A stretch of DNA of 64,000 nucleotides from an uncultured bacterium (GCA_963777505.1 CAVZQN010000011.1:195775-259774); one strand, 5' to 3'. Positions 22,601-35,600 are shown, counted from the stretch's first letter. A program made the numbers and translations. Notes: generated by a model not told the origin, from the letters alone.

Positions 22601-22913
22601 TGCCTACTTCATGAATTTTGCAAACGTTGGTGTGTTCAAGCTGTGCCTGTGCGCGGGCTTCGCGGATGAAACGTTTCTCCGTTTCGGAATCTCCTTCTAA
22701 GATGAACTTCAGCGCGACTTTCCGGTTTAATGCAAGATCAATCGCTTTATAGACTCTGGATGTTGATCCTTTTCCAAGAAATTCCAGAACTTTATAGCGA
22801 TCCCATCCTTCAAATTGAAGTTCAGTGGAAGCACTTTGCTCCTGGGATTCTTGCGAAACACGGCGCGGGATAACCGTAGTTTGGTCAGACGAAGTGATAT
22901 CTTCTTCTTTCAT
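19623..22913 (-). CDS. Membrane-anchored Hanks-type Ser/Thr kinase with C-terminal TPR region
   Basis: VALK, HRDIKPSN, DFG, DVYSLG; TM AAAAILAVSTFLVIVLGGIGIF; about 700 aa of TPR-like repeats. Confidence 0.92.
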   Translation of the reverse strand: MKEEDITSSDQTTVIPRRVSQESQEQSASTELQFEGWDRYKVLEFLGKGSTSRVYKAIDLALNRKVALKFILEGDSETEKRFIREARAQAQLEHTNVCKIHEVGNFSGKYFIAMQLIEGEVLSTASQKMSLEQRVLAIQKIAEALHSAHKMGIIHRDIKPSNIMVEKTDAGWHPYVLDFGLAREIAMEGLTVTGMILGTPAFMPPEQAWGESQKLDRRSDVYSLGATLYYVLSNKPPYEGNSMEVIVKLSQGDPTPLRKLAPEIPRDLETIVTKCMERNPDRRYDSAKALAEDLERYLNGDSILARPASLTYRLNKKIRKHQAAAAILAVSTFLVIVLGGIGIFSWWRAAQQVRIAKEFMQLAENMEWRMRVARMAPLHNLTEDKEQVNRKMNSILQRIQEAGTLAEGPGNYAYGRGLMELSKLDEAQRYLQKAWDAGYQTPENAYALGITLGHQYQQELEVAQRAENLSGKKSTIKDIETKYRDRILNYLSQSQGSEPEVRNYIEGLIKFYEKKYPEALEKARSAQKLWWLYEAGKLEGDIYMALGIEQFDRSNNEAALKYFSDAGNSFLRAMQIARSEPALYESDCWKWLQVMKVESSRGGDLKQPMDKGLAACDLALEVDPDSVIAYSWKAQISWRWTDELYYRGEYSENTLNNAIQFAQAAVQRKKNDFGAQFELGNAYHMKMMIDQSSGRDPNPSAVRAIEHFNSATKIKPYWATYNNLAVLYVDWAQYDVQHFKDPRSKLELSIQNSTKSAEMLPNSVGSLNTLGNAYIILGDYQIKNGIDPDSTLDRAIEALTKAHLASPKHPVPFLNLATAHVNKATSGLNRGKNPEDSSNRAIENSKKALELGGEGFATVYSIMASALVANAKYRIYQGQDPGDLNTPIEYSRKTLESGSNEGSLAYSTILDAYCTQADYNMNHGTDPSPLLNKARGIAKKAISEFPDSDLPVLGAEIEVLAGQWNLRSDRSPEKNLEKALQFVEQSLQRNATNTPALAVLAEIREAQATWFQRRNKPTQNVIDDGLTTCRKILDLRPSFAEVAVTMGKLHWLQAQTETDQQKRDESFRLAREAVQKAITLNSNLKRKYEPLIAQMR

Positions 22914-23056
22914 GCTCCCCCTTCTTTGGGCATGTAAGAGCTACTTCATTTGTACCATAAAGCGAATCTTCGTGTCTCTGCGGATAAGGTCTTTGTGACT
23001 GCTTGGTGGTATTTGCGATTTGTAACGCTGGCATCCTGCCGGCCGAGCTAGAGCTC

Positions 23057-23704
23057 TTACGATCCAATTTCCGAAAATTGGATATTCAGAACACGGTACT
23101 TCTCCCAATCTTTGAAATCGTAATGCCACCATTCAGGATCAAACACCAAAAAATCTTCCGACTCCATTGCCGATCGGAGCAAATCGCGTAAGCGTCGTTG
23201 TTCGTCGGTACCGCCTTTGTAATTGATATGTGATCTGTCTGTCATTTCATCGTAGGCACCAGGCATCTCAACTGCCTGACCTGTTTTCAAATCAAACAAA
23301 GTTAGATCGACAGCACAGCCGCGATTGTGACGCGATCCTTTCTTAGGATCGGCAACAAATATCTTCTTATCTTTCGGTGTAGCATCCCAAAACATTTTCG
23401 TTACAGACCACGGACGATAACCATCGTGAATCAGAAGTCCATAACCTTGAAGCTTTAGTTTTTGATGGGCCCGCACCAGCGCTTCCGCAGCAGGGCGCTG
23501 CAAAAATGCTCGCGCTTCCGTATACATTGGACGTCCCATAAAATTATTGGACGTTGCATAACGGATGTCCAAACGTAATGTCGGTTCGAGCTTGATGAGC
23601 TCCACAAGATCAGCTTGGCGGAAGTCTCCTGTTTCTTGTGGCGGCCGATGAGCGCATTGAAGTGTGAATAAAAGAAGTAACAGAAAATAAGAAAGCTTTC
23701 TCAT
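23057..23704 (-). CDS. ddpX: D-Ala-D-Ala dipeptidase (M15D, VanX/DdpX family)
   Basis: IRYATSNNF, DGYRP, SRHNRGCAVDLT, EWWHY. Confidence 0.92.
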   Translation of the reverse strand: MRKLSYFLLLLLFTLQCAHRPPQETGDFRQADLVELIKLEPTLRLDIRYATSNNFMGRPMYTEARAFLQRPAAEALVRAHQKLKLQGYGLLIHDGYRPWSVTKMFWDATPKDKKIFVADPKKGSRHNRGCAVDLTLFDLKTGQAVEMPGAYDEMTDRSHINYKGGTDEQRRLRDLLRSAMESEDFLVFDPEWWHYDFKDWEKYRVLNIQFSEIGS

Positions 23705-23790
23705 GGACGCAATATTACCATCGAAATGTATTTGCCTGCGTCATGTTTATATAACCGATAAAATGGTTTCACCGGTTATATTGGTTTTCG

Positions 23791-24750
23791 TTAGTCAAAA
23801 TCAATGGGGCTTTGGATACCCTCAACTCCTTTTAAGATGTGAGTGTAAATCATTGTAGTCCTGACATCTTTGTGACCAAGTAATTGTTGAACAGTTCGGA
23901 TGTCATAGCCTTTTTGGAGCAAGTGAGTTGCAAAACTATGGCGAAAGGAGTGGCAGTTGCCGGGTTTGATGATGTTCGACTTTTTGATTGCTGACTTAAC
24001 GGCTTTTTGAAGCAAAGATTCGCCGGGATGGTGTCGTCGGACCTTTTTTGAACGAGGATCTATTGAGCGCTTCAAAGCAGGAAAGACATATTGCCAGGCG
24101 AATGATTTAGCGGCGGAAGGATACTTATATGCCAGGGCAAAAGGTAAATAAACCGCTCCAAAACCTTCAGCGAGATCTTGTTCATGAAGTAGTTTCACCT
24201 TTTTGAGTTGCAATTGAAGTTGTGGTTTTAAAGACATCGGTAAAACTGTGATCCGTGCATTTTGACCTTTGGAATCTTGTACGATGATTTGATTCCGGTT
24301 AAAGTCAAGATCTTTAACGCGCAGTCGCAAGCACTCCATCAGCCGCAAACCTGATCCATAAAGTAAACTTGCCATTAATCGATAGGTTCCTTCCATGTTG
24401 GATAAGATTGTTTTTAGTTCTTGTTGAGTGAAGACTATCGGGTACTTCTTTTTAGATTTTGCCCGTAGGATATTGTCGATTTTAGGAAGTTCAAGATTCA
24501 GGACATCCTTGTAAAGGAAAATCAAAGCGCAGAGAGCCTGGTTTTGTGCGGAGGCGGATACTTTATTGTGCACCGCAGGTGACTTAAAAAGTTTCGGAGC
24601 TTTCGGCACCTAGCAGAGCTGGATCTTTTTGATGATTGAACAAATAGTATCGTTTGATCCAGTTCAAGTAACTATTTTCGGTCCTGAGACTGAGGGTTTG
24701 AGTCGTGCTGTTTGCCGGATCCGGTCGGATAATTTTGGCGGACGGTTCAT
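23791..24750 (-). pseudogene. intI: Integron integrase IntI with three single-base frameshifts in the 5' region
   Basis: [24 protein letters not shown], and the integron-specific insert [20 protein letters not shown]; N-terminus reconstructed from ATG 24750 (AGGAG SD) across frames. Confidence 0.92.
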
Positions 24751-24774
24751 AGAGTTTTCTCCTGCCCGCCATAA

Positions 24775-24803
24775 TGGAATTATCTGCCAATTTGGCGTAT
24801 AAT
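24775..24803 (+). promoter_or_regulatory. Candidate cassette promoter Pc
   Basis: TGGAAT-17 bp-TATAAT pointing toward attI. Confidence 0.65.
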
Positions 24804-24814
24804 CAGCCCTAAAG

Positions 24815-24852
24815 GCGTGTTATGGCAACTTGCAATATATTAGTAGTTAGGC
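24815..24852 (+). other. attI site (core GTTAGGC at 24846-24852)
   Basis: G/TTAGGCCGC is complementary to the cassette-1 end GCGGCCGAAC; lies just upstream of divergent intI. Confidence 0.85.
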
Positions 24853-24862
24853 CGCACTATGA

Positions 24863-25224
24863 ATGCATGACTTACCTATTCATTTGGATATTCTCCGGGC
24901 CTTTTGGCTATTTTTTAGCGGTGTCGGAATAATTCTGGGCCTATATCAGCAGAGCTACATACTGATCGTTTTTGCAATTGTTGTGTTCGTCGGCTCCATT
25001 CTCTTAAAAAAGCGACCCACTGTTGGTCGCATTGTCCTTCTACTCCACTTTGCTTTACAAATTTTAATGACACCCAAAATTTCATTGTTGTTGGTGTGAA
25101 ACCGATATTAATTCTGCAATTCATTTTGGGCTGTATATTCGTTTATGTTCTTTGGCGGTTTAATCCAAATCATGTTGCGGCCGAACAAATCACTGCAGCG
25201 GACACGTCCTCGGGCTCTCGCTAA
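24863..25224 (+). CDS. Cassette 1: membrane protein, probably frameshifted near 25060
   Basis: Hydrophobic ORF 24863-25099; a shifted frame continues ...FIVVGVKPILILQFILGCIFVYVLW into attC1. Confidence 0.55.
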
Positions 25225-25266
25225 CGCTCGAGCCCTGCGGCGTGCCGCTGAGTTCAAGCGTTCGCT
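25180..25266 (+). other. attC1 (87 bp)
   Basis: GCCGAAC...ACTGCAGCGGACACG...CGTGCCGCTGAGT...GTTCGCT with extrahelical bases. Confidence 0.9.
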
Positions 25267-25285
25267 GGCCGATAACACTTCACTC

Positions 25286-25759
25286 ATGACACTCAAGACC
25301 CTTTGTTGTCCATACTGTAAGGAAACGATTAGCGCGGCAAGAGGTCTTGTAAGGTGCAGAGCGTGCCGCACATTTCATCATCAACATTGTTGGGAATCCA
25401 ATGGGCAATGTTCAGTGTATGGCTGTAAAGGAGTTGCCCTCCACTATAGAGGAAGATTTGGCAGGTTCGCCAAGTGGCCAATCAACGCAATTATTGTGGT
25501 CTCATTTACTGTAGCGGTCCTGCTTAGTGCTGCCGTCTTTGAAATTCCCTGGTTAGCGCATTTGACTTTTACGCTTGCTGGCTTTTCAACTTCATATCTA
25601 TTTTTTAGCGCCTATCGCGATCCAGAGCGCAGCGATGTTACTCGTTGGTTATGGGATTCGTGTGAGAGGCAGTCAATTAGGGGTGCCAAATATTTGTGGA
25701 TTCTATCAATCGGTTCAATAATCATTGCCATTGCAAATCTCGCATCGTTGTTCACTTGA
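25286..25759 (+). CDS. Cassette 2: prokaryotic RING-finger (Prok-RING_1-like) plus TM helices
   Basis: CPYCKETI...CRACRTFHHQHCWESNGQCSVYGC followed by three hydrophobic segments. Confidence 0.75.
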   Translation: MTLKTLCCPYCKETISAARGLVRCRACRTFHHQHCWESNGQCSVYGCKGVALHYRGRFGRFAKWPINAIIVVSFTVAVLLSAAVFEIPWLAHLTFTLAGFSTSYLFFSAYRDPERSDVTRWLWDSCERQSIRGAKYLWILSIGSIIIAIANLASLFT

Positions 25760-25775
25760 CAGTTTCTAATCGGCC

Positions 25776-25960
25776 AGCGAACAAGTCATTGCAGCCGACG
25801 CCTCCTGCGCCTCTTCAGGCGCCCGCTTTGCAATTTGCTAAAAATACATTTTTGAAAAAGAAAACATAAATCGGCTATCATCGATTGTGCTGGAACAAGC
25901 TTCGCAAAGCGTGCGCCTTCATTCGGCGCAGTTCGGCGCGGCTGAATTCCAGCGTTCGGC
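25776..25960 (+). other. attC2 (185 bp, promoter-bearing)
   Basis: AGCGAAC...GTTCGGC; TTGAAA(25852)-18-TATCAT(25876) in the loop. Confidence 0.88.
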
Positions 25961-25966
25961 CTCATA

Positions 25967-26362
25967 ATGGGACAGAAGAATATACCCGGGATAATTATTT
26001 CTGCTCAGTGCGCAATCGTTTTCATATTTTTTATACAGATAAGAATTGAGTATCAACAACCTCATTCACTTACAAACCTACTGGTTCTCTCACTAATTGC
26101 GATAGCTGTTTTGTCTGCAGCTGCAGGATTATACTTTCGTAGCCGTATTGCTAGAATCGTCGCATCTCTTCTTCTTATTTATGTAGGGTTCAGAGGCTTT
26201 TATCTCTTTCATGGGATGTATCAGTTAATTAAACCAATAGATTTAATTGAAACGTTTGTGTTTGGCATTCTAAACCTTGCTCATGCGTATTGCATCTATT
26301 TGGCAATTGCCTTGTTTCTGAGTCGCCAAGCAAAACTGTACTTTAGTAGCGAACGCATTTGA
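25967..26362 (+). CDS. Cassette 3: four-TM hypothetical membrane protein
   Basis: ORF fills the cassette; stop abuts attC3. Confidence 0.8.
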   Translation: MGQKNIPGIIISAQCAIVFIFFIQIRIEYQQPHSLTNLLVLSLIAIAVLSAAAGLYFRSRIARIVASLLLIYVGFRGFYLFHGMYQLIKPIDLIETFVFGILNLAHAYCIYLAIALFLSRQAKLYFSSERI

Positions 26363-26363
26363 G

Positions 26364-26547
26364 GCCGAACAAGTCATTCGAGCGGACAACACCCGCGTCT
26401 CGCTCAGTCTTACTGCTTGCAAATACTTTTAAAGGCATTTTGCTTACGAAAAAGTTTTTCGGTTATCATGGTCCGTGCTGGTGAAGAGTTGCAAGCAGCA
26501 AGCCTTCACTCGCCTGCGGCTGTTGCCGCTCAATTCCAGCGTTCGGC
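26364..26547 (+). other. attC3 (184 bp, promoter-bearing)
   Basis: GCCGAAC...ATTCGAGCGGACAAC / GTTGCCGCTCAAT...GTTCGGC; TTGCTT(26440)-18-TATCAT(26464). Confidence 0.9.
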
Positions 26548-26553
26548 CACGCT

Positions 26554-26951
26554 ATGGACACGATGATCATAACCAGAGAACATGTCTGTCGAAAGCTTAT
26601 CGATTGGCGTGAAGGTAGAATCACCTCCGCTGACATTTACGAATGGGCCGGATCTCTGTATCCCAATACCGATCATGATTACGAGGATTGGGAGGGAGAT
26701 CAACAATCGGAGTCAGCACAAACGAAGTTCTCGGTGCTCTGGTCATGTTGAACTATGAATCTGAATGTCCCGAAGATGCAGAAATCTTCATAGAATTCCT
26801 GTCCACACCGGTGGGTCGCTTTCACGAAGGTTATGCGGTTCTCCTGAAAAAACTCGATGCCATAGACTATGACAAACGCAGGGTAATGTTGCGCGACGAT
26901 CCACTCTATGCTCCGTTCCTCTCTCAACCACACAATGATAAACTGGTCTAG
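26554..26951 (+). CDS. Cassette 4: acidic hypothetical protein with one frameshift near 26700
   Basis: ORFs 26554-26751 and 26688-26951 overlap and together fill the cassette. Confidence 0.65.
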
Positions 26952-26956
26952 GCGTG

Positions 26957-27041
26957 GCCGAACAACTCATTGCACCGGACGCTCACCGCGTCTTCGCTTC
27001 GCTCATCCGCGGATTCGCGCCTGTGAATTCCAGCGTTAGCG
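26957..27041 (+). other. attC4 (85 bp)
   Basis: GCCGAAC...GTTAGCG hairpin. Confidence 0.88.
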
Positions 27042-27069
27042 GCGGTTTGAGTTCAAAGCGAGCTGTATC

Positions 27070-27468
27070 ATGGGAGTCACTGGAGAATCCGACGCAATAG
27101 ATTCAATTCTACAGACATCGAGCCTTCGCCCTTACAAAGTGTGGCATGTTGGGGACGAACGAATACAGGGAAATGGTAAGGCAGGTATTCATGAGAGCTC
27201 TGGCTTCAACATCGATATAAGCAAAAATGATGAGCTCTCTGAAGCAATTAAGGATGCAATAGCTTTTCTCAACAGTTGGAAGACCGAGCTACAAAAACTC
27301 TGTCAAACACAAGGCCTTGAACCTTCCGTTATTGATTTCGGATTATTTTGTGGAATTCATTACTTCGCTCATCATGATCATCTTCCTGCCACACTGATTC
27401 AACTGGCGGCTGAGAGTGGTCTAGCAATCGAGCTATCTCATTACAGATCAGATTATAACGCCAGCTAA
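27070..27468 (+). CDS. Cassette 5: DUF4279-like hypothetical protein
   Basis: VWHVGDER...SGFNIDIS...LIQLAAESGLAIELSHY pattern; stop lies in the attC5 left core. Confidence 0.6.
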   Translation: MGVTGESDAIDSILQTSSLRPYKVWHVGDERIQGNGKAGIHESSGFNIDISKNDELSEAIKDAIAFLNSWKTELQKLCQTQGLEPSVIDFGLFCGIHYFAHHDHLPATLIQLAAESGLAIELSHYRSDYNAS

Positions 27469-27632
27469 CAAGTCATTCGAGCGGACAACACCCGCTCTTG
27501 ATTCAGATATTTGCCTTGCCTAATGAAAATAAACCTACAGGTTAGTGAAAGTCTCGGTTCATGATCGTTGGTGGCAGCAAGCAGCAAGCCTTCATTCGCT
27601 GGCGGCGTTGCCGCTCAACTCCAGCGTTATAC
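27463..27632 (+). other. attC5 (170 bp, long family, degenerate loop)
   Basis: AGCTAAC-AAGTCATTCGAGCGGACAACACCCGC...GCAAGCAGCAAGCCTTCA...GTTATAC. Confidence 0.85.
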
Positions 27633-27672
27633 GGCTTGAGCACAAACTTCAGTAACAGAATTGGAGGATAAC

Positions 27673-28065
27673 ATGACGCCCTATATCGACGGATTCGTAC
27701 TCCCCGTGCCGCGCGACCAGCTAAAGTCGTATAGAGAAGTTGTTGAAAAGGTAGCGGAGATTTGGAAGGAACATGGCGCACTCGATTACTCAGAATATGT
27801 TGGTGACGATTCAAATTTGGAGGGCACCCGATCTTTCCCTGATGTCGCGAACACAAAGGAGGATGAAGTCGTCATCTTTGGATGGGTCGCATTCGAATCT
27901 CGTGAAGCGCGTGATCTTGCTAATAAGAGGGTCGCAGCCGACCCAAGGATGTCGGATTTGATCAATCCACTGACGAATACATCGAGGCCGGTTTTTGATG
28001 CTAAGCGGATGGTGTATGGAGGATTCCGGTCGCTCGTTCAATCATCTAGTCAGAACGCCGTATAA
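27673..28065 (+). CDS. Cassette 6: DUF1428 (YbaA-like) protein
   Basis: YIDGFVLPVP, WKEHGALDYSEYVGDD, FDAKRMVYGGF; GGAGG SD. Confidence 0.9.
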   Translation: MTPYIDGFVLPVPRDQLKSYREVVEKVAEIWKEHGALDYSEYVGDDSNLEGTRSFPDVANTKEDEVVIFGWVAFESREARDLANKRVAADPRMSDLINPLTNTSRPVFDAKRMVYGGFRSLVQSSSQNAV

Positions 28066-28131
28066 CAAGCAAATGCAGCCGACAAATTTTCCGCTGCGCT
28101 CCAAATTTGCGGCTGATTTGCGGCGTTCGGC
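28060..28131 (+). other. attC6 (72 bp, different sequence family)
   Basis: GTATAAC-AAGCAAATGCAGCCGAC...GCGGCTGATTTGCGGC-GTTCGGC. Confidence 0.9.
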
Positions 28132-28598
28132 GTGACGAAATTCTGCGAATTTTTCTTTTATTAGTATTTGTTTTGCCCTTTTTTGCTTGTAGCGGTCGCA
28201 CAAAGTCCAATCCAAAATCTGCCTCGAACTTCGAAGCTTTTCCTCCCGATTATGACCCCGAGCTTTTCGAGGTGCCATTCTGTGATTTGGATCAACGACA
28301 CATCGGACAACTCATCGCCTTGCATGGCGTCTTGATCAATAAGAATAACAATTGGCTGCTACAAGCTGGTGCTGAGTGTAATAGCAACAATGAACTAGTT
28401 GTACACGTTGAATCTCACAAGTCTTGTGCCGGAGATGACGTTTCAGAAAAACTTAGCGAAATCAATAATGATGACAACATAACAGGAAATGTTCTGGTTT
28501 ATGGCACACTGCTAAGATCGCAATCGACGTATGCATTCAATGTCACGTGTTTTGACTATGTTCAAATAATTAAGCCATGTAACAGTGGACTCGACTAA
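28131..28598 (+). CDS. Cassette 7: predicted lipoprotein (start codon unclear)
   Basis: Hydrophobic stretch ending FFA-CS lipobox-like; ORF fills the cassette. Confidence 0.6.
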   Translation, partial: RDEILRIFLLLVFVLPFFACSGRTKSNPKSASNFEAFPPDYDPELFEVPFCDLDQRHIGQLIALHGVLINKNNNWLLQAGAECNSNNELVVHVESHKSCAGDDVSEKLSEINNDDNITGNVLVYGTLLRSQSTYAFNVTCFDYVQIIKPCNSGLD

Positions 28599-28608
28599 CC
28601 GAAGTCAC

Positions 28609-28699
28609 GCCGAACAAATCGTTCGAGCGGACAACACCCGCGTCTCATTCAGTCTTGCTGCTTGCATTAAGCTCAATTGCATTTTGCTTACTAAAAATC
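28609..28699 (+). other. attC7, left arm only (long family, truncated within the promoter loop)
   Basis: Similar to the attC3 left arm through TTTTGCTTAC.AAAAA, then unrelated sequence. Confidence 0.8.
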
Positions 28700-28795
28700 G
28701 CGACTTGAAGGAATATAAGGTTAATATCCTATCGTTTAAGGTTGTGAAGAATGCTGACATTATTATGAGCGAGGAAGGATTAATCAAGGTCCCGA

Positions 28796-29807
28796 TTGCG
28801 TCTGAGTAGCGGCACCGTATTAGAATCAATCGTAGAGACGCGCGCGGAGAGATTGCGTGATTTTTTTCGAGGTCAGAGCGGAGCGGTTCATGTTGCATTT
28901 GAAGTGGGGACGCAATCAGCCTGGCTGTACGAGATTCTAAAGTCACTGGTGAGCAGCATAACGGTTTGTGATGTTCGCAAGAATAAACGGCGAGGGAACA
29001 AGAGCGATCGCATCGACGCGCACAAGTTAGCCAGCTGGCTGCGGCTCGGCGAATTAAACAAGATCTATCAAGGGGATCGAAACACTCGCAAACTGAGGGA
29101 CTTGGCTCATGGTTATTTAGCCACAGTCAGTGATTCGATTCGGGTAATGAATCGGATTAAGGCGCTTTACCGAGGTTGGTCGATCCGCTGTGCGGGCCCA
29201 GATGTTTATTACAAACGAAATCGGCAACAGTGGCTTTCAAAACTTCCAATTGATGAAAGTAGGATGCGAGCTCTTCTCTATCTACACTCAGTTAGATTTA
29301 CTCAAAGAACAACGCAAAGAAATCAAGAAAGTATTTTTAAAGGAAGCCAGACGTTATCCAATACAAAAGATTTTGCGTGGGATTCCCGGTTTTGGTCCAA
29401 TCCGTGCAGCTTTGTGATAGCTGTCGTTGGAACTCCGCACCGTTTTCGAACCGACCGTCAGCTTTGCAGTTACAGTGGATTATCGGTTGTCATTCATTCC
29501 ACTTCTGATCATGACATCATCGGCGGCCGGATCATTCGAAAACAGCACAAGCATGCCACCCGCGGACTTACGCGGGATTATAACCGTATCTTAAAAATGG
29601 TTTTTAAGAGTGCGGCAGTGGAAGCAATCCGAAAAGATCCAATGAAAACATTGTACCGGCGAAAAATTGCCAAAGGGATTCAGCCAGATGGCACTTCTTT
29701 CGATTGCCAGAAAACTTGCAACAATCACTCTGATACTTTGGAAGCGAGGTGAAACATTTAACACAGCGAAAAAGCAAGTCGTTCGAGCGGACATCAACCG
29801 CGTCTAG
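28796..29807 (+). pseudogene. IS110-family transposase remnant (5'-truncated, several frameshifts)
   Basis: VAFE, KSDRIDA (DEDD RuvC-like), IPGFGPIRAA, YSGL and IARKL occur in different frames; first catalytic Asp motif absent. Confidence 0.85.
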
Positions 29808-29931
29808 CTCAGGCTTGCTGCTTGGACCAAGTTTCAAATGCATTTTGCTTGCGGAAAAAGTTTTTCGGTTATCATGGTCCGTGCTGGTAAAGAGTAGCAA
29901 GCAGCAAGCCTTCACTCGCCTGCGGCCGCTC
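29765..29931 (+). other. Degenerate long-family attC (attC8) retaining the promoter loop
   Basis: Close internal match to attC3; TTGCTT(29845)-19-TATCAT(29870); both core sites damaged. Confidence 0.8.
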
Positions 29932-29982
29932 TTGTGTAACTTAAAAACGCCTAACAACGGCATGCAATCGTAGGAGAGTTAT

Positions 29983-30597
29983 ATGAGGAAACTTATTGCG
30001 TCAACATTTACATCACTGGACGGTGTCATGCAGGCGCCAGGAGGACCGGAGGAAGATCCAACCGAAAACTTCACATTAGGTGGTTGGACCTTCGCTTTCG
30101 AAGACGAAGCAATGGATCTTTCTGAGGCAGGTTTCGATGGTAAAGATCGAGAGCTTTTACTCGGCCGCAAAACCTACGAAATATTCGCGGGATATTGGCC
30201 TCACCAACCAGAGGATAATCCGATTGCGAGGACATTCAACGCGGCAAAAAAACATGTGGCGTCCCGGACTTTGAAGTCATTGCAATGGAACAATTCGTCG
30301 GTACTTAGCGGTGACATCGTTTCAGCGATAACCGCGCTCAAGGCTCAGCCCGGACAAGACCTTCAAATCATTGGCAGCGGCAATCTGATTCAGACACTAC
30401 AAGCCGCAACACTCATTGACGAATACCACGTATGGACGTACCCGGTAGTTCTTGGCGGTGGAAAGCGATTGTTTGAAAATGGTGCAAGGCCATGTGCACT
30501 GCGGCTCGTGGCTTCGAAGGTTTCAAAAACTGGCGTTGTGATGAGCACCTATGTTCCAGCTGGCGATATTCGGCTTGGCACAGTTGGCGAATCCTAG
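29983..30597 (+). CDS. Dihydrofolate reductase/RibD C-terminal family protein
   Basis: TSLDGVMQAPGGPEED, LLGRKTYE, GSGNLIQTL, PVVLGGGKRLF. Confidence 0.92.
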   Translation: MRKLIASTFTSLDGVMQAPGGPEEDPTENFTLGGWTFAFEDEAMDLSEAGFDGKDRELLLGRKTYEIFAGYWPHQPEDNPIARTFNAAKKHVASRTLKSLQWNNSSVLSGDIVSAITALKAQPGQDLQIIGSGNLIQTLQAATLIDEYHVWTYPVVLGGGKRLFENGARPCALRLVASKVSKTGVVMSTYVPAGDIRLGTVGES

Positions 30598-30600
30598 CCG

Positions 30601-30725
30601 CAACACTCCGTCTCGCTCAGGTCTGCCGCTTGCATTCAACTAAAATTCGCTTGTGGCAGGGAAAACTCTAGTCCGTTAGAATTATCTATGCTGGGAACAC
30701 AAGCAAGCGACAATCGGCGTCCAAT
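30601..30725 (+). other. attC remnant (long family) with -10-like box
   Basis: CAACACTCCGTCTCGCTCAGG..CGCTTGC...TAGAAT(30677)...ATGCTGG...GCAAGCG; no core sites. Confidence 0.6.
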
Positions 30726-30767
30726 TCTGAAGGAAATTCTAGTGATGCCACCAAAGGAGTTTCTGTC

Positions 30768-31226
30768 TTGACTACATATGAAGTCTATGCCGTTTTTTTC
30801 GCTATTCTGCAGCTCCTCATTTCGGGCCTCGGATTCATTGTTATCGCTTGGACGCTCCGTGTTCTCGTTCGATCAATCGATGCACAGTCGAGTTCCGGAG
30901 TAGCAGTACGGCAATTGGAGTTCGACAAGGTCGTTCTTACTTATCCTTGTCTCTACAAGTACTTCTACCAGGGGCAGGACATCAGCTCCGACGACCCTGA
31001 GTATCCTCGCGCTATGGCTGCGACCCAACTTCTTGCCAACTACTTCGATGGTTACTTCCAGCAACAAGGCAAGTACCGACAGATGTGGCCGGACAAGAAG
31101 TGGAAAAGCTACATCCAAGATCACGTCGCAAAGAGCCCGGTGTTACGTCGCTACATAATTGAGAACAATACCTGGTTCTCTTCTGAATTCGTGCAGATGT
31201 GCCAGTCAGTTGGACTACAGCGATGA
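30768..31226 (+). CDS. Hypothetical protein with N-terminal TM helix (cassette-like)
   Basis: AAGGAG SD before TTG start; lies between attC remnants. Confidence 0.7.
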   Translation: MTTYEVYAVFFAILQLLISGLGFIVIAWTLRVLVRSIDAQSSSGVAVRQLEFDKVVLTYPCLYKYFYQGQDISSDDPEYPRAMAATQLLANYFDGYFQQQGKYRQMWPDKKWKSYIQDHVAKSPVLRRYIIENNTWFSSEFVQMCQSVGLQR

Positions 31227-31269
31227 TGATTCAGAAACCTTTTAGCAACTTCCTAGACAAGTGTGATCC

Positions 31270-31378
31270 TCTTCAGTCGCTTGCATCGCATCATGCATTT
31301 TGAAAAAGAAAACATAAATCGGCTATCATCATTGTGCTAGGTGAAGCTCAGTAAATCTAATCGGCGAAGCTGAATTTC
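31270..31378 (+). promoter_or_regulatory. attC remnant reduced to the promoter loop
   Basis: 33 nt (31298-31330) identical to attC2 25850-25882; TTGAAA-18-TATCAT. Confidence 0.75.
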
Positions 31379-31395
31379 TAAAGGAGTCATAAAAA

Positions 31396-31845
31396 ATGGC
31401 AGAGGTCAAAACTAAGCTCAACAAAGCCAGCGTCACAAAATTTCTCGATAGTGTCGCGGACGAAGTTAAACGCAAAGATTCATACACGATTTTAGACTTG
31501 ATGAAAAAAATAACCAAAGCCGAACCGAAAATGTGGGGTAGCAGTATTGTCGGTTTCGGGTCTTACCATTACCTGGGTAAAAGTGGACGTGAAGGCGATT
31601 GGCCTGTCGCAGGTTTTTCGCCGCGTAAACAAAACCTTACCTTATATATATTAGGTGGTTGGGAACAAAATGCAGAGTTGCTCGATAAATTGGGCAAGCA
31701 CTCGTTGGGCAAAGGCTGTTTATACATCAATCGCTTGAAAGATCTGCAAATGCCGGTATTGAAAAGATTGATTACCGAATCCTTCAAGCAAGCGAAAAAA
31801 CTAGCTCAAGCAGAGGCAAAGAAACAAGCAAAGCAGAAAAAATAG
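31396..31845 (+). CDS. DUF1801 domain protein
   Basis: PKMWGSSIVGFGSYHY, GFSPRKQNLTLY, LGKHSLGKGCLYI. Confidence 0.9.
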   Translation: MAEVKTKLNKASVTKFLDSVADEVKRKDSYTILDLMKKITKAEPKMWGSSIVGFGSYHYLGKSGREGDWPVAGFSPRKQNLTLYILGGWEQNAELLDKLGKHSLGKGCLYINRLKDLQMPVLKRLITESFKQAKKLAQAEAKKQAKQKK

Positions 31846-31896
31846 ACGTGATGCGGAAAATGATTTTTCAAACCGGAGCTCTCAATTATCAAAAAA

Positions 31897-32604
31897 ATGC
31901 CGAATAAACCTCTCCACATCGGAATCGTTGCCTGCTCCGCTGAAGGAGCAGCATTGTGCTACAGAACCATTTGCACAGAAGGTGCACACTTACTTGGGCA
32001 ACACGCACATCCAGAAGTTTCAATGCACACGCACTCTTTTTCTGACTACGTAGCCAGCATTGACCGTGATGATTGGAAAGGGGTCGGCGATCTGATGCTT
32101 TCCTCCGCGAATAAACTAGCTAATATGGGCGCAGATTTTCTGATTTGTCCTGATAACACGATCCATCAGTCCTTATCCTATATAAAGGATGCCTTGCCAC
32201 TTCCATGGTTGCACATAGCGCATGTTGTTGCCGCGCGAGCAAAGGAGCTTGGTTACCAACGACTTGGTCTTACTGGAACACGATGGCTTGTTGAGAGTGA
32301 TGTCTATCCAACCGTCCTGGAACAGAACAAACTGTCTTATGTTCGGCCGAGTAAGGAAGAACGTGACGAAATCAATCGCATCATCATGGATGAATTGGTT
32401 CCAGGAATATTTAAACAAGAAGCGGTAGAGTATTTTCAAAATGTAATGATGCGACTGAAGGACCAGGCTTGTGATGCAGTCGTTCTGGGATGTACCGAAA
32501 TTCCCATAATTATGAATGACACGAATTCACCTCTTCCAACCCTCGACTCAACACGACTGCTGGCGCGAGCCGCACTTCAACGGGCCATTGCAGGAAAGAC
32601 TTGA
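31897..32604 (+). CDS. Aspartate/glutamate racemase family protein
   Basis: ICPDNTIH, VLGCTEIP, LDSTRLLA. Confidence 0.9.
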   Translation: MPNKPLHIGIVACSAEGAALCYRTICTEGAHLLGQHAHPEVSMHTHSFSDYVASIDRDDWKGVGDLMLSSANKLANMGADFLICPDNTIHQSLSYIKDALPLPWLHIAHVVAARAKELGYQRLGLTGTRWLVESDVYPTVLEQNKLSYVRPSKEERDEINRIIMDELVPGIFKQEAVEYFQNVMMRLKDQACDAVVLGCTEIPIIMNDTNSPLPTLDSTRLLARAALQRAIAGKT

Positions 32605-32682
32605 AACCATCATGCTGATTTATGCGTGATGCGCGATATTAGTATTGTTCTTTAATCATTTCAATGTGATAATGCACGGTTC

Positions 32683-35600
32683 ATGATCGGTAATCGTCTC
32701 GCCAATCGCTACGAAATTATCAAAGAGTTAGGCCGCGGGGGCATGGGGGTTGTATACCTTGCCCACGATCCAGTTTTGGATCGCAATGTTGCCATCAAAG
32801 TAGTCATGCCGGATGTCGTAAGTCCGGAAAGTGCTGAACGCTTTAAGCGAGAAGCACGTGTGGTGGCAAAAATGGATCATCCTTCCATAGTTAGTGTTCA
32901 TGACAGCGGTGAACACGAAGGCTCCCTTTTCTTTGTAATGCCTTTTGTAGAAGGTGCAAATCTTCGTTCGATGCTGAAAAATGAAAGTTTAAGTCTCGGT
33001 GATTTGATTGAAGTTGCAGTTCAGATTGCCGATGCGCTTGAATACAGCCATTCGCGCGGTGTTGTGCATCGTGACATCAAACCTGAAAATTTGATGGTTA
33101 CACATAAGGAAGGGGAGGGAATTCGAGTCCGTGTTACTGATTTTGGTCTCGCAATGGCGCCAGCTCAAGAGCGGATCACAAAGACAGCAACGATTGTTGG
33201 AACTCTTGCATACATGAGTCCCGAACAGGTTGCGGGAAAAGAAATTGATTCGCGCTCTGATATTTATGCATTCGGTACCGTCTTATATGAATGTCTGGTT
33301 GGTGAACCTCCTTTTGCAGGTGAGGTTCAGGTTCTTCTTTATAGAATCGCGCATGAAATTCCAGCACCTCCTCATACATTGCAACGTGACGTTGATGTGG
33401 AAATTGAAGATGTAATTTTACGAGCTCTAGAAAAAGATCCTGCCAGAAGACCAACGGGTAAAGAAATTGCGGAAAGACTGACTACGTATCGCAGAAAGCT
33501 CCTGACCAGCGGCCGCAATCGTGCAATGCTTCCTTCTTCAATGACGCTCAGTTTTCAAATGCCGCGTCCGTCGATGCGTCCTTTTGTTGGACGCGAAAAG
33601 GAATTTGCAGATTTACAGAAACGGCTCAATGCTGCTATTTTGGGCGAATGCCAATTCGTTCTTGTTTCGGGTGAAGCTGGAATTGGGAAAAGCAGGCTGG
33701 TTGAAGAATTAGAAAATCTCTCGCGTGTTCGTTCGATTCCGGTTTATCATGGCCGTTTTGTGGAAGTCAGTCATCCTTTGCCGTATCAAGGATTTGGCGA
33801 AGTCATCCAGGAATATTTCCGTACGAAACCCTCTTCTGTTACTCCAGTTGATTTTTCGGATCTTGCATCCGAATTGATCGCGCTCTTTCCTGTGCTCGCA
33901 GAAGTTAAAGAACTGTCTACGCATTCGGAAGAGACAGCAAAAACAATCCAGGAAGCCGGCGCGCGAAAATTTGAAGATCGCACTTATATATTTGAATTAC
34001 TTGCGCGAACCATTACACGGATTGCCGGCGGAAAACCGATTGTCCTTTTATTCGAAGACCTCCACGCTGCAAATGTGTCGATCGAAGCTCTTGATTACAT
34101 CGTAAGAAGACTCGGTCCAACATCGACGCTCATTGTCGGAACTTATCGCACTACCGAAGTTGATAAACGTCATCCACTGATGAATTTGCTCAGTGGTTTT
34201 AAAGGGGATAAACGTTTCACTCAACTTCAACTCGCTCCTTTGTCTCCATCAGGGCATCGCGAATTCTTGGAATTACTGATGGGCGGATCAAAACTCGGCG
34301 ATGATCTCGTCCAAAAATTTTATGATGCAACGGAAGGCAACCCGTACTTTACTTCTGAACTTGTACGATCGTTGATCGATTCCGGAGGCATTGTTCGTGA
34401 TGATACAGGCTCATACAAACTTTCAAGCGAGACAGCTCTTTCAGTTGAAGAACTTCCGGTAACGATTCAGCAAACTGTGGAAGAAAGGATTGAAAGACTT
34501 CCGAAGGATCTTCGTGAAGTTCTTTCAGTGGCATCCGTTCTGGGAAAGAATTTTGAGTATCGTGATCTTGAAAGGCTTCTTCCTGAAGAAGAGAATCCTG
34601 AACCCGCTGTTGAGCAGTTAATTCGTGAAAGTTTTATTGAAGAAGACCGCCAATCGCGTTCTGACCGTTTGACGTTTTCCAGCGGAGTTTTGCGCGACGT
34701 TTTGTATTCTTCACTTCCAAGACGAAGACGGCGTGCGCTTCATAAAAAGCATGCGGAAGAAATTGAAAAAAGAAATTCGGGGCGGCTGGAGCGTGTGTAT
34801 CCTCAATTGTTTGAACATAATGTTCAGGGGGATGTTCCGGAAAAAGTCGTTGAATACGGCTTTTTGCTCGCAAAGAAATCACTCGAGGCATTCAGTCCGA
34901 CCGATGCCATAACAGTTCTGCAAACCGTTCTGGACTTTCTGGAAGAAGAAGGCGGAAATCGATCGGCGGAAGTTGAAGCAAAGAGTTTGCTGGCATCAGC
35001 TCATCAGATGATGGGAAATGTCGATGTGGCCTTAGAAGAGATGCAGTCTGCTATCCAAATTCTGGAAAAGGTAAAAGATGTATCGGGTCTTGTGGTTGCT
35101 GTTCTTACAGCTGCTGAAATTGCATGGCAAGGAAGAAAAGTTAATGAAACCAGGAAATGGGTGGAGAAGGGTCTTGACCTTGCTTCAATGGAAAAAGATT
35201 CGGGTAGTGTAACGCGTCTCCTTTCCATGGCAGCAACGATTGCGAATCTACGGGGCGAATACGATAAAGCTCGCGAATATTTGAGTGAAGCAGAGCGATA
35301 TACTCCTGCACAAGAAGCACAGGAAGAAGTTACACAAGGCGGTAGATTGATTGTTGCCGTTACAAATCCTTGTAAAGCACGTCATCCTGCGAATGCATTT
35401 TTTAACGAAGAAACCGAAACTCTTTCAAACGTTTATGAAACGTTGGTTACAACGAACGCTCATGGAAACTTGATTCCACATTTGTGTGAACGTTGGGAAG
35501 CATTGGAAAATGGAGCTGTTTTTCAATTTACAATTCGCAGTGATGTGCGGCTGCACAATGGAAAAAAATTAACAGCCCAGGATGTAAAAGAGTCGTTTTC

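What the first reader, a model, noticed from the sequence alone, without database searches (positions are those of the whole stretch)
25776..31330. Oversized attC sites with a built-in sigma70-like promoter in the apical loop
attC2, 3 and 5 are 185, 184 and 170 bp, above the classical range of about 57-141 bp, yet keep normal R/L boxes and extrahelical bases. The extra length is a second stem (e.g. CTTACTGCTTGCAA/TTGCAAGCAGCAAG) whose unpaired loop holds TTGAAA-18-TATCAT (25852), TTGCTT-18-TATCAT (26440), TTGCTT-19-TATCAT (29845) or TTGAAA-18-TATCAT (31300). The two spacer types differ while TTG, TATCAT and spacing are kept, as expected from selection on promoter function. All face downstream. 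Inference: the recombination site doubles as a mobile promoter, so a cassette switches on whichever cassette follows it (and itself when circular), escaping the usual Pc distance gradient. I know promoter-bearing and gene-less cassettes but not an attC family built this way; novelty needs a literature check.
Basis: partly seen in the sequence, partly recalled or inferred. Interest (0 to 1): 0.85.

Follow-up and report, generated by a model that had tools for sequence, protein, structure and literature searches.

The report
Integron recombination sites carrying a promoter
A chromosomal integron uses unusually long (about 183 bp) cassette recombination sites whose top loop always holds a promoter-like sequence pointing at the next gene, which would let every stored gene cassette be switched on, not only those nearest the integron's single promoter.

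Summary
The window carries a chromosomal integron: intI at 23791-24790 (minus strand, apparent frameshift), then an attC array. attC2 and attC3 are 185 and 184 bp and fold as attC hairpins. attC5 (170 bp) is a decayed copy. Long sites are the main attC class of one bacterial family: 53 intact sites in 6 genomes, chosen by their R/L-box ends only, measure 174-188 bp. Stems are supported by covariation (96% of cells paired against 75% in shuffles). The R'/R'' chimera pattern shows past canonical G|TT recombination in 44 of 51 neighbour pairs. Inside the otherwise variable, roughly 79-column loop, TAnnAT is present in 53 of 53 sites, in 12 of 12 further genome sites, and in 120 of 124 metagenome sites picked by their arms alone. 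G at -14 occurs in 162 of 173 and T at -17 in 156 of 173. The -35 is weak. This is the signature of an extended -10 promoter, always facing the next, closely abutting cassette ORF. The host's tRNA promoters use the same consensus. No transcript data could be obtained, so promoter activity is inferred (confidence 0.65). I found no description of such an attC class in the searched literature. I classify it as a new variant of a known kind.

The parts
23791..24790 (-). Integron integrase gene intI, read in two frames (24790-24584 and 24609-23791). The apparent frameshift lies near an A5 run, so this is either a pseudogene or an assembly error.
   Evidence: TIGR02249 integron integrase matches at E 5.8e-113 (model positions 54-313) for 23791-24609. 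The N-terminal piece 24584-24790 matches model positions 10-49. Sequence.
24846..24852 (+). Putative attI crossover core GTTAGGC between intI and the first cassette.
   Evidence: Read from the sequence. This is inference only and was not tested.
25180..25266 (+). attC1, short class (87 bp), without a loop promoter.
   Evidence: Found by the paired R''L''/L'R' end search. Fold.
25776..25960 (+). attC2, intact long attC (185 bp), loop type A.
25852..25881 (+). Promoter-like element in the attC2 loop: TTGAAA-18-TATCAT, with G at -14. The expected start lies about 25888, and the next ORF starts at 25967.
26364..26547 (+). attC3, intact long attC (184 bp), loop type B.
26440..26469 (+). Promoter-like element in the attC3 loop: TTGCTT-18-TATCAT.
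26957..27041 (+). attC4, short class (85 bp).
27463..27632 (+). attC5, a decayed long attC (170 bp). The left distal stem is lost and the loop reads CATGAT instead of TAnnAT.
28060..28131 (+). attC6, short (72 bp). Its R'' GTATAAC is the complement of the R' GTTATAC of attC5.
28609..28696 (+). Left part of a type B long attC, broken between its -35-like and -10-like parts.
28697..29772 (+). Weakly matching, probably degraded IS110-family element that interrupts the site. The boundaries are approximate.
   Evidence: Pfam DEDD_Tnp_IS110 at 2.8e-10 and Transposase_20 at 4.6e-7. NCBIfam IS110 scores 56 bits, below its cut-off of 140.
29773..29930 (+). Type B long attC lacking L'/R'. It holds TTGCTT-19-TATCAT at 29844-29874 and is followed by the RibD_C gene at 29983.
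30600..30750 (+). Remnant of a third loop type (type C of G001). It holds GTGGCA-18-TAGAAT at 30653-30682 and is followed by the ORF at 30768.
31240..31345 (+). Type A remnant with TTGAAA-18-TATCAT at 31300-31329, identical over 33 nt to the attC2 loop. It is followed by the DUF1801 gene at 31396, which has an AAGGAG ribosome-binding site.

Best explanation
These are genuine attC recombination sites of an enlarged class, about 174-188 bp with a mode of 183-185. This class is the main attC type of the chromosomal integrons of one bacterial family. Each site has the usual R and L boxes, then a second covarying stem, then an open loop of about 79 alignment columns. The loop holds an outward-facing housekeeping-sigma promoter of the extended -10 kind: T-17, G-14, TAnnAT and a weak -35, on the cassette-coding strand. 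The -10 element ends 72-82 nt before the end of the site. The next cassette's start codon usually follows within 4-41 nt. Each cassette would therefore bring a promoter for whatever cassette lies downstream of it, so the array would be transcribed in many short units and not only from Pc.

Shown: the class exists, its structure covaries, it has recombined at the canonical G|TT in the past, the sigma-contact positions are very strongly conserved amid a variable loop, and orientation and spacing are fixed.

Inferred: RNA polymerase initiates there, and this matters for cassette expression.
For: Class and structure:
- Lengths are bimodal: 16 short sites (58-87 bp) and 53 intact long sites, out of 72 end-paired candidates. 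Two chance hits on contig C8 and the decayed attC5 were set aside.
- The consensus fold has 27 pairs, 18 of them with compensatory changes. 96.0% of cells are paired against 74.6 +/- 0.7 in shuffles, and the covariation score is 0.566 against 0.173, with 0 of 500 shuffles as high. Slid controls pair 27-43%.

Past recombination:
- The RRRY tail of R' fits the next site's R'' better than its own in 44 of 51 neighbour pairs. The reverse holds in 1 pair and 6 are equal.
- G001 has an intact 321-aa intI.

Promoter signature:
- TAnnAT is present in 53 of 53 sites: TATCAT 40, TAGAAT 6, TATGAT 4, TAAAAT 3.
- It is present in 12 of 12 further sites from G002, G004, G005 and G006, and in 120 of 124 distinct metagenome sites selected by arm sequence only.
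- In neighbouring 28-nt windows the motif occurs in 14, 2, 1, 0 and 1 of 124 sites. The reverse-strand equivalent occurs in 17 of 124. Among short sites it occurs in 1 of 16.
- G at -14 occurs in 162 of 173 sites and T at -17 in 156 of 173.
- In 135 loops dereplicated at 80% identity, these are the only strongly conserved loop positions apart from a T at -4 and a GG further downstream.
- The best -35 match at spacer 16-19 averages 3.9 of 6, against 2.2-3.4 at five control offsets. The spacer is 17-18 nt in 49 of 53 sites.

Context:
- The longest ORF after a site is co-oriented in 64 of 70 cases (3 opposite, 3 none). It starts within 41 nt in 53 of those 64, which leaves no room for a cassette-internal promoter.
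- The host uses the TTGACA-17-TATAAT consensus: 10 of 39 tRNA upstream regions match at 10 or more of 12 positions.
- In the VCR site the 65-nt VTS can be replaced by a triplet with only 1.6- to 2.4-fold effects on recombination (passages of PMC2727003). Strong sequence conservation in a VTS is therefore not expected from recombination alone.
- Several remnants that have lost one or both attC arms keep the element directly upstream of a co-oriented gene: window 31300, G000 C1:83127, L057:4047 and L051:14206.
Against: There is no expression evidence of any kind. No RNA run holds the locus, and the laid contigs cannot show transcript starts.

The -35 is poorly conserved, and the window's type B sites fail a standard consensus scan.

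T at -15, the other half of the canonical TGn extended -10 motif, is present in only 60 of 173 sites.

Promoter function does not obviously explain the conserved C at -16, T at -4 and the GTGCTGG/GG block just downstream.

Three remnants have lost the hexamer (attC5, C7:74141, L063:1743). Four of 124 metagenome sites lack it.

The sites are related by descent. Counts are therefore not independent events, and no tree-aware rate test was run.
Confidence: 0.65

Rival explanations
1. The conserved loop block serves recombination, not gene expression. It could be a binding site for a host or integron factor. It could also be an easily melted nucleation point, perhaps even an RNA-polymerase open complex, that helps a 180-bp site with a very large terminal structure to extrude or fold its bottom strand.
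For: The site is far larger than usual, so folding should be harder. The authors of PMC2727003 state they cannot exclude a role of the VTS in folding under replicative conditions. The conserved C-16, T-4 and GTGCTGG/GG positions are unexplained by a plain promoter. The block sits at a fixed distance of 72-82 nt from the site end.
Against: The conserved positions are the ones sigma contacts (-17, -14, -12, -11, -8, -7), while hexamer positions 3 and 4 vary, which is the pattern known for -10 elements. The motif is strictly strand-specific. Remnants without attC arms keep it in front of genes. Replacing the VCR VTS by a triplet barely changes recombination.
Confidence: 0.15
2. The block has no function. 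It is conserved only because all these sites descend recently from one ancestor, as attC repeats of sedentary integrons often do.
For: attC sites within one chromosomal integron are typically alike. Type A copies in G000 and G001 are 88-93% identical overall.
Against: Across 135 loops that are at most 80% identical, most loop positions have diverged widely (information 0.06-0.5 bit), while TA..AT is fixed and G-14 stands at 0.93. The stems show many compensatory changes, so there has been ample time for substitutions. The motif holds in 120 of 124 metagenome sites from many samples.
Confidence: 0.04
3. The promoter is real, but its product is not the downstream mRNA. It could make a short regulatory or primer RNA from the right arm of the site, for instance to prime complementary-strand synthesis on an excised cassette or to regulate recombination.
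For: The conserved initial transcribed block (GTGCTGG, GG) suggests the first transcribed bases matter. The GCTGG in the loop is complementary to the CCAGC of the spacer before R' in many sites (read).
Against: There is no conserved terminator or processing signal between the loop and the next ORF. The ORF starts within 41 nt of the site end in 53 of 64 co-oriented cases, so any transcript runs into it. The CCAGC partner varies (CCAGC, CCGGC, CGAGC, CGGGC) without matching changes in GCTGG, judged by eye and not counted.
Confidence: 0.08

Closest known systems
VCR-type attC repeats of sedentary chromosomal integrons (Vibrio cholerae repeats of about 128 bp with a 65-nt branched variable terminal structure)
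   Same: Both are a homogeneous, host-specific attC class in a chromosomal array. Both have R/L boxes, an unpaired central spacer, extrahelical bases and a large terminal structure above the L stem (passages of PMC2727003).
   Different: The sites here are about 55 bp longer. They have an extra covarying stem and an open loop of about 79 alignment columns with near-invariant sequence positions. The VCR terminal structure is described as the most variable part of the site and as dispensable, and no promoter is reported in it in the passages I read. The extrahelical base nearer the R box is C in 40 of 53 sites here, not the conserved G.
Cassette-borne promoters (PcmlA, qacE/qacI, qnrVC, toxin-antitoxin cassettes)
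   Same: Both are promoters inside the array that free expression from the distance to Pc (review PMC8876359, passages).
   Different: Those promoters lie in a long 5' UTR of the cassette and drive that cassette's own gene. They are cassette-specific. Here the promoter is part of the recombination site at the 3' end, drives the neighbouring cassette, and is a class-wide feature of the site.
Gene-less promoter cassettes of Vibrionaceae superintegrons (Blanco et al. 2024, PMC11014356)
   Same: Both are array-internal promoters that modulate neighbouring cassettes. That paper even saw 5'-RACE starts inside an attC (cassette F2) (passages).
   Different: There the promoters sit in dedicated ORF-less cassettes of 491-666 bp. 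The attC-internal starts were scattered, and the authors suggest they may reflect spurious transcription. Here the promoter-like element is one conserved, positioned element inside the attC of ORF-bearing cassettes.
Extended -10 sigma-70 promoters
   Same: Both have A-11 and T-7 fixed, T-12 fixed, G-14 nearly fixed and a weak, variable -35 at 17-18 nt. The definition of this promoter class is recalled textbook knowledge.
   Different: T at -15 is present in only 60 of 173 sites. A conserved T-17/C-16 and a conserved downstream block are present in addition. No activity has been shown.
Outward promoters of IS elements and group II introns inserted in integron arrays
   Same: Both are mobile DNA supplying a promoter to a downstream cassette (review PMC8876359, passages).
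   Different: The loop here is not an insertion. It occurs in every intact long site, and I saw no empty version of the same arms. The only other attC class seen has different stems. I saw no terminal repeats or transposase. Separate IS insertions do occur in these loops, at window 28697 and L051:4820.

Membership tests
attC (integron cassette recombination site) | Inverse core sites R'' (RYYYAAC) and R' (GTTRRRY) at the two ends | tested here: met
   AAC and GTT are near-invariant in 53 sites. The fourth base of R' is often C (GTTCGGC), a mild departure from RRRY.
attC (integron cassette recombination site) | Imperfect inverted repeat whose bottom strand folds into a hairpin with an L stem and an unpaired central spacer | tested here: met
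   Folds have z -4.0 and -4.9. 96% of cells are paired, and 18 of 27 pairs show compensatory changes.
attC (integron cassette recombination site) | Extrahelical bases on the R''-L'' arm: a conserved G in L'' and a T 6-8 nt away | tested here: inconclusive
   Two single-base bulges lie on the '' arm, 8 alignment columns apart (one is a gap column). The T is present in 53 of 53 sites. The other bulge is C in 40, G in 10, T in 2 and A in 1, so the canonical G is in the minority. The definition comes from PMC2727003.
attC (integron cassette recombination site) | Sits at the 3' end of cassettes in an array next to an integron integrase | tested here: met
   intI matches TIGR02249 at 5.8e-113. The array starts 25180. 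ORFs are co-oriented after 64 of 70 sites.
attC (integron cassette recombination site) | Crossover at G|TT of R', so that the R' tail belongs to the next cassette | tested here: met
   The next site's R'' fits better in 44 of 51 neighbour pairs, and the own R'' fits better in 1.
   Lengths are 174-188 bp in genomes and 176-197 bp in metagenomes. The longest attC in the passages I read was 132 bp (PMC3607928).
attC (integron cassette recombination site) | Recombined by an integron integrase in an assay | not testable with these tools
   This needs a conjugation or excision assay.
Sigma-70 type promoter (extended -10 class) | -10 hexamer with T-12, A-11 and T-7 | tested here: met
   Present in 53 of 53, 12 of 12 and 120 of 124 sites, with positional and strand controls.
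Sigma-70 type promoter (extended -10 class) | TG at -15/-14 | tested here: inconclusive
   G at -14 occurs in 162 of 173 sites, but T at -15 in only 60 of 173.
Sigma-70 type promoter (extended -10 class) | -35 element TTGACA at 17 +/- 1 nt | tested here: inconclusive
   The mean best match is 3.9 of 6, against 2.2-3.4 at control offsets. The spacer is 17-18 nt in 49 of 53 sites. The best base frequency in the -35 zone is 0.73.
Sigma-70 type promoter (extended -10 class) | The host polymerase uses this consensus | tested here: met
   10 of 39 tRNA upstream regions match TTGACA-N16-19-TATAAT at 10 or more of 12 positions, a short distance before the tRNA.
Sigma-70 type promoter (extended -10 class) | Transcription starts about 7 nt downstream | not testable with these tools
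   No RNA run holds the locus, and contigs cannot show starts.
Cassette-borne 5'-UTR promoter or gene-less promoter cassette | Promoter lies in the cassette's own 5' UTR or in an ORF-less cassette, outside the attC | tested here: not met
   The element lies inside the attC loop. The ORFs start 4-41 nt after the preceding site in 53 of 64 cases.

The most novel reading that the evidence does not exclude
This is an integron lineage in which the recombination site itself has become the unit of transcription. Every cassette carries the promoter for its downstream neighbour, and for itself once circular. The array would then be a string of independently expressed genes and not a mostly silent store. 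The same RNA-polymerase open complex in the loop might also help the oversized hairpin to form, coupling the expression of a cassette to its mobility.
Probability: 0.2. Interest if true: 0.9.

Novelty: new variant of a known kind. Interest (0 to 1): 0.78.

Why it matters
The working model of integrons holds that cassettes are promoterless, that expression falls with distance from Pc, and that distal cassettes are a silent reserve. Known exceptions are called anecdotal in PMC11511950. An attC class with a built-in, strongly conserved promoter would be a systematic exception, because expression would travel with the recombination site. It would also show that the variable terminal structure, regarded as the dispensable part of attC, can carry a selected sequence function.

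In practice, attC detectors tuned to shorter sites may undercount these arrays. The class also offers a natural design for recombination sites that double as expression signals. The idea can be tested directly with TSS mapping and reporter fusions.

Tried and rejected
- Rfam scan of 22000-34000 at E <= 1 gave 0 matches.
- The consensus promoter scan of 23500-33000 found 14 sites against 14.3 +/- 4.3 expected, so the scan alone gives no support.
- RNA evidence: no RNA holder is listed for 24800-32000. All 24 runs hold at most 0.09 of the sampled words.
- I laid X22-X24 (library says RNA-Seq, kind guessed) and X1. All are contigs and show no starts. The pieces from X22-X24 cover the DUF1428 cassette exactly from about 27625 to 28068-28070, that is from one attC boundary to the next. 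They look like cassette-bounded DNA pieces, not transcripts, and I do not use them as evidence on expression.
- Ortholog test of the arm-less remnants (G000 C1:83127 and window 31300) in G001-G004 and G006: no syntenic copy was found, so I could not ask whether the element is kept at a fixed locus.
- A small ORF in the loop (ATG in type B TATCATGG...) was rejected, because type A loops have no ATG there.
- IHF-like, sigma-54-like and Bacteroidota-type (-7 TAnnTTTG) readings were considered by eye against recalled consensus sequences. I dropped them because the variable and fixed positions do not fit, and because the host's tRNA promoters are of the TTGACA/TATAAT type.
- MITE or insertion origin of the loop: I saw no empty-site version of the same arms and no terminal repeats. 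I ran no dedicated test.
- A covariance model was not built. The end-pattern searches served instead.
- Organism name: not determined. The nearest integrases in named genomes are only 51-64% identical and come from many phyla.
- Supplementary files of PMC8352920 and PMC4889954 (attC model tables, attC lengths) could not be seen. They may list long attC sites, so my statement that the class is undescribed rests only on searches and the passages read.

Full report
WHAT IS IN THE WINDOW. An integron integrase gene lies on the minus strand at 23791-24790. It matches TIGR02249 at E 5.8e-113, and the N-terminal 40 model positions sit in a second frame, so there is an apparent frameshift near an A5 run. 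Downstream on the plus strand lies a cassette array. It holds attC1 25180-25266 (87 bp), attC2 25776-25960 (185 bp), attC3 26364-26547 (184 bp), attC4 26957-27041 (85 bp), attC5 27463-27632 (170 bp) and attC6 28060-28131 (72 bp). After that come the left part of another long site (28609-28696), broken by a weakly matching IS110-family element (about 28697-29772), and a long site lacking L'/R' (29773-29930). Two remnants follow at about 30600-30750 and 31240-31345. The cassette ORFs are small and mostly of unknown function: a prokaryotic RING finger, DUF4279, DUF1428, RibD_C and DUF1801.

CHECK OF THE OBSERVATION. The three sizes are right. The bottom strands of attC2 and attC3 fold into long hairpins at -44.7 and -41.6 kcal/mol, with z -4.0 and -4.9 and 0 of 200 shuffles as good for each. 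They show the R pairing, a bulged L stem, a second stem and a large open loop. attC5 does not fold this way (z -0.67) and has lost both its left distal stem and the hexamer, so it is a decayed copy. A fifth, GTGGCA-18-TAGAAT at 30653-30682, was missed. As plain consensus matches the motifs are unremarkable: the scan finds 14 sites in 9.5 kb against 14.3 +/- 4.3 in shuffles, and the TTGCTT sites fail its criteria. The case therefore rests on comparison with related sites.

THE LONG SITE IS A CLASS, NOT AN ODDITY. BLAST with attC2 found full-length relatives in all 6 other genomes of the same family. G001, a genome of the same genus, has an array with many copies at 88-93% identity. Copies in other genera are 77-83% identical. 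Outside the family only short, weak hits appeared. I then picked sites by their ends only, pairing an R''-L'' pattern with an L'-R' pattern, in the own genome and in fetched stretches of G001-G004 and G006. The lengths are bimodal: 16 short sites (58-87 bp, mostly 85-86) and 56 sites of 164 bp or more. Two of the long candidates, on contig C8, do not align as attC and were dropped as chance. attC5 was dropped as decayed. That leaves 53 intact long sites of 174-188 bp.

A strict IUPAC end pattern with a 120-150 nt gap matched 58 places in the 7 genomes of the family. It matched none in the 6 other genomes of the class, and none in 394 other genomes sampled from the phylum. The reversed-pattern control gave 0 everywhere. 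This means 'not found in those searched', and it depends on their having this box type. The arrays next to the 80 nearest named integrases (51-64% identity, many phyla) have attC sites of 56-117 bp by the same end search. The only exceptions are three artefactual pairs of 174, 247 and 302 bp.

THESE ARE REAL attC SITES. On 53 bottom strands the consensus fold has 27 pairs in three helices: the L stem, a short middle helix and the distal stem. 18 pairs show compensatory changes. 96.0% of cells are paired against 74.6 +/- 0.7 in shuffles. The covariation score is 0.566 against 0.173, with 0 of 500 shuffles as high, and slid controls pair only 27-43%. Columns 60-138 (79 alignment columns) are unpaired in the consensus. 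Two single-base bulges sit on the '' arm. One is T in 53 of 53 sites. The other is C in 40, G in 10, T in 2 and A in 1, so the canonical extrahelical G is the minority state (definition from PMC2727003).

Past recombination is visible in the sequence. The variable RRRY tail of each R' matches the complement of the next site's R'' better than that of its own R'' in 44 of 51 neighbour pairs. The reverse holds in 1 pair and 6 are equal. For pairs where both sites are long the counts are 23, 0 and 4 of 27. That is what crossover at G|TT produces, so cassettes bounded by long sites have been moved by an integron integrase. The window's own intI may be broken, but G001 has an intact 321-aa gene.

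THE LOOP ELEMENT. In the 53-site alignment the T, A, A, T columns of TAnnAT are the only near-invariant columns within the loop (at most 1 deviation). They are as conserved as the AAC, GAC and GTT of the boxes. All 53 sites carry TAnnAT: TATCAT 40, TAGAAT 6, TATGAT 4, TAAAAT 3. The hexamer ends 69-82 nt before the site end. Twelve further long sites from G002, G004, G005 and G006, found later, all carry it too.

As an independent sample I scanned the metagenome collection with a pattern made of the two ends plus the TTGC of the distal stem, and nothing from the loop. These gave 124 distinct sites in 79 loci, 176-197 bp long with a mode of 181-183. 120 of them have TAnnAT in the expected 28-nt window: TATCAT 94, TAAAAT 8, TAACAT 8, TAGAAT 3, TATTAT 3, TATGAT 3, TAATAT 1. 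The four exceptions are L202, L217, L220 and L234.

Controls on the same sites: the motif occurs in 14, 2, 1, 0 and 1 of 124 in other 28-nt windows. The reverse-strand equivalent in the expected window occurs in 17 of 124. Short sites carry the motif in 1 of 16. I anchored 173 loops on the hexamer and dereplicated them at 80% identity, which left 135. The strongly conserved positions are T-17 (0.88), C-16 (0.87), G-14 (0.93), T-12 and A-11 (1.0), positions 3 and 4 of the hexamer (0.81 and 0.79), A-8 and T-7 (1.0), a T at -4 (0.84), and a GG about 11-12 nt after the hexamer (0.76 each). The hexamer values of 1.0 follow from the anchoring. The rest of the loop, including the spacer, is largely randomised. 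The -35 zone is weak. Its best base reaches 0.73. The best TTGACA match at spacer 16-19 averages 3.9 of 6, against 2.2-3.4 at five control offsets, and the spacer is 17-18 nt in 49 of 53 sites.

READING. The fixed positions are those that the housekeeping sigma factor reads in an extended -10 promoter, and the two free hexamer positions are the ones that vary in natural -10 elements. That statement is recalled textbook knowledge. The element is strictly strand-specific and always points at the next cassette. After 64 of 70 sites the longest ORF is co-oriented (3 opposite, 3 none). In 53 of those 64 it starts within 41 nt of the site end, and only 12 of 64 have a Shine-Dalgarno-like motif. The attC loop is thus essentially the only non-coding room upstream of each gene. 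The host itself uses this promoter type: 10 of 39 tRNA upstream regions match TTGACA-N16-19-TATAAT at 10 or more of 12 positions, a short way before the tRNA. In the VCR site a 65-nt terminal structure can be swapped for a triplet with only 1.6- to 2.4-fold effects on recombination (PMC2727003, passages). Strong sequence constraint in this part of a site therefore calls for another function.

Decayed copies are suggestive but not countable. Several keep the left arm and the element and then break just after it, directly before a co-oriented gene: window 31300, G000 C1:83127 (no attC arms at all, in a divergent intergenic region), L051:14206, L057:4047 and L054:994. Three have lost the hexamer: attC5, C7:74141 and L063:1743.

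My best reading is that the long attC class doubles as a moderate, constitutive promoter for the downstream cassette. Transcripts starting in the loop would carry only the right arm of the site. They would therefore lack the stable RNA hairpin that a read-through transcript would form right next to the start codon. That last point is inference.

WHAT IS NOT SHOWN. There are no transcript data. No RNA run holds the stretch. The contigs laid from three runs whose libraries say RNA-Seq span exactly one cassette from site boundary to site boundary and look like cassette-bounded DNA. The conserved C-16, T-4 and GTGCTGG/GG positions are unexplained. Sites are related by descent, and I ran no tree-aware test. 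The rivals are a recombination or folding role for the block (0.15), a non-mRNA product (0.08) and pure shared ancestry (0.04).

COMPARISON WITH WHAT IS KNOWN. By the passages I read, known array-internal promoters lie in the 5' UTR of particular cassettes (cmlA, qacE/qacI, qnrVC, toxin-antitoxin cassettes) or come from IS elements and group II introns (PMC8876359). Others sit in dedicated gene-less cassettes of Vibrionaceae. In that work some 5'-RACE starts fell inside an attC, and the authors suggest this could reflect spurious transcription (PMC11014356). [quoted passage not shown] The longest attC in the passages I read is 132 bp, in Treponema (PMC3607928).

Full-text searches gave no relevant paper. 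I searched for phrases such as 'promoter within the attC' and 'attC promoter' (1 irrelevant hit), for 'long/large/longer attC', for attC with Acidobacteria, and for attC with TSS terms. Supplements were closed, and subscription journals are outside the library. 'Not described' therefore means not found in these searches.

VERDICT. I rate it a new variant of a known kind: an attC class with an embedded, conserved promoter-like element. Interest 0.78.

Noticed in passing
window 24584-24612: The integron integrase reads in two frames that overlap near an A5 run. It is either a pseudogene or a homopolymer assembly error. The same-genus genome G001 has an intact 321-aa intI (L050:10435-11400, minus strand).
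   Followed up: partly
window 28697-29772: A weakly matching IS110-family element sits inside a long attC loop, between its -35-like and -10-like parts. Pfam gives 2.8e-10, and NCBIfam gives 56 bits against a cut-off of 140. On its right it abuts a second long site that begins just after R''. In G001 another element interrupts a loop at GTGC (L051:4820, with the other half at L051:9831-9907 on the opposite strand). The loops therefore seem to attract insertions.
   Followed up: partly
L050:11440-11502 (G001): Between the intact intI and the first cassette of G001 lies TGCTATCAT, about 16 nt upstream of a GTTCGCT core. This is the same kind of extended -10 element as in the attC loops, facing the array. 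It is a candidate Pc that resembles the loop element. The window's own intI-attI spacer has TATAAT at 24799-24804 instead.
   Followed up: no
window 27625-28070: The DUF1428 cassette occurs with 0 differences in contigs of three soil runs (X22-X24). Those contigs start and stop at the attC boundaries. In X23 and X24 the sequence beyond 28070 differs, so the same cassette seems to occur with another attC context.
   Followed up: no
alignment A1 columns 176 and 184 (window attC2 and attC3 included): Of the two extrahelical bases, the T is invariant (53 of 53). The one nearer the R box is C in 40 of 53 sites and G in only 10, although G is described as the strand-selecting base in other attC sites.
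   Followed up: partly
window 25887-25895, 26475-26483, and the same place in all long sites: A conserved block GTGCTGG(G) begins 4-8 nt after the hexamer, about at the expected start site. Its GCTGG is complementary to the CCAGC of the spacer before R' in many sites. Its role is unexplained.
   Followed up: partly
window 25180-25266, 26957-27041; L050, L051, L055: A second, short attC class of 85-87 bp without the element is interleaved with the long sites in the same arrays. 16 of the 70 end-paired sites are short. The class is itself well conserved across genomes.
   Followed up: partly
window 26554-26951: The cassette after attC3 holds two overlapping ORFs in different frames (26554-26751 and 26688-26951). 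This may be one gene with a frameshift.
   Followed up: no
window 19623-22913 (-) and 32683-38310 (+): The integron is flanked by two very large Ser/Thr-kinase genes. One is 1096 aa with TPR repeats. The other is 1875 aa and joins a kinase, an AAA_16 ATPase, TPR repeats and a solute-binding protein family 5 domain.
   Followed up: no
G000 C1:49755-49903, C1:83119-83185, C4:321209-321382, C7:74141-74243, C10:85683-85856, C4:1777807-1777979: Solitary long sites and fragments lie outside the array elsewhere in the genome. One complete site is at C4:321209, and several half sites sit next to ordinary genes. ARAGORN also calls a tRNA-SeC at C1:83442, next to the C1:83127 fragment.
   Followed up: partly
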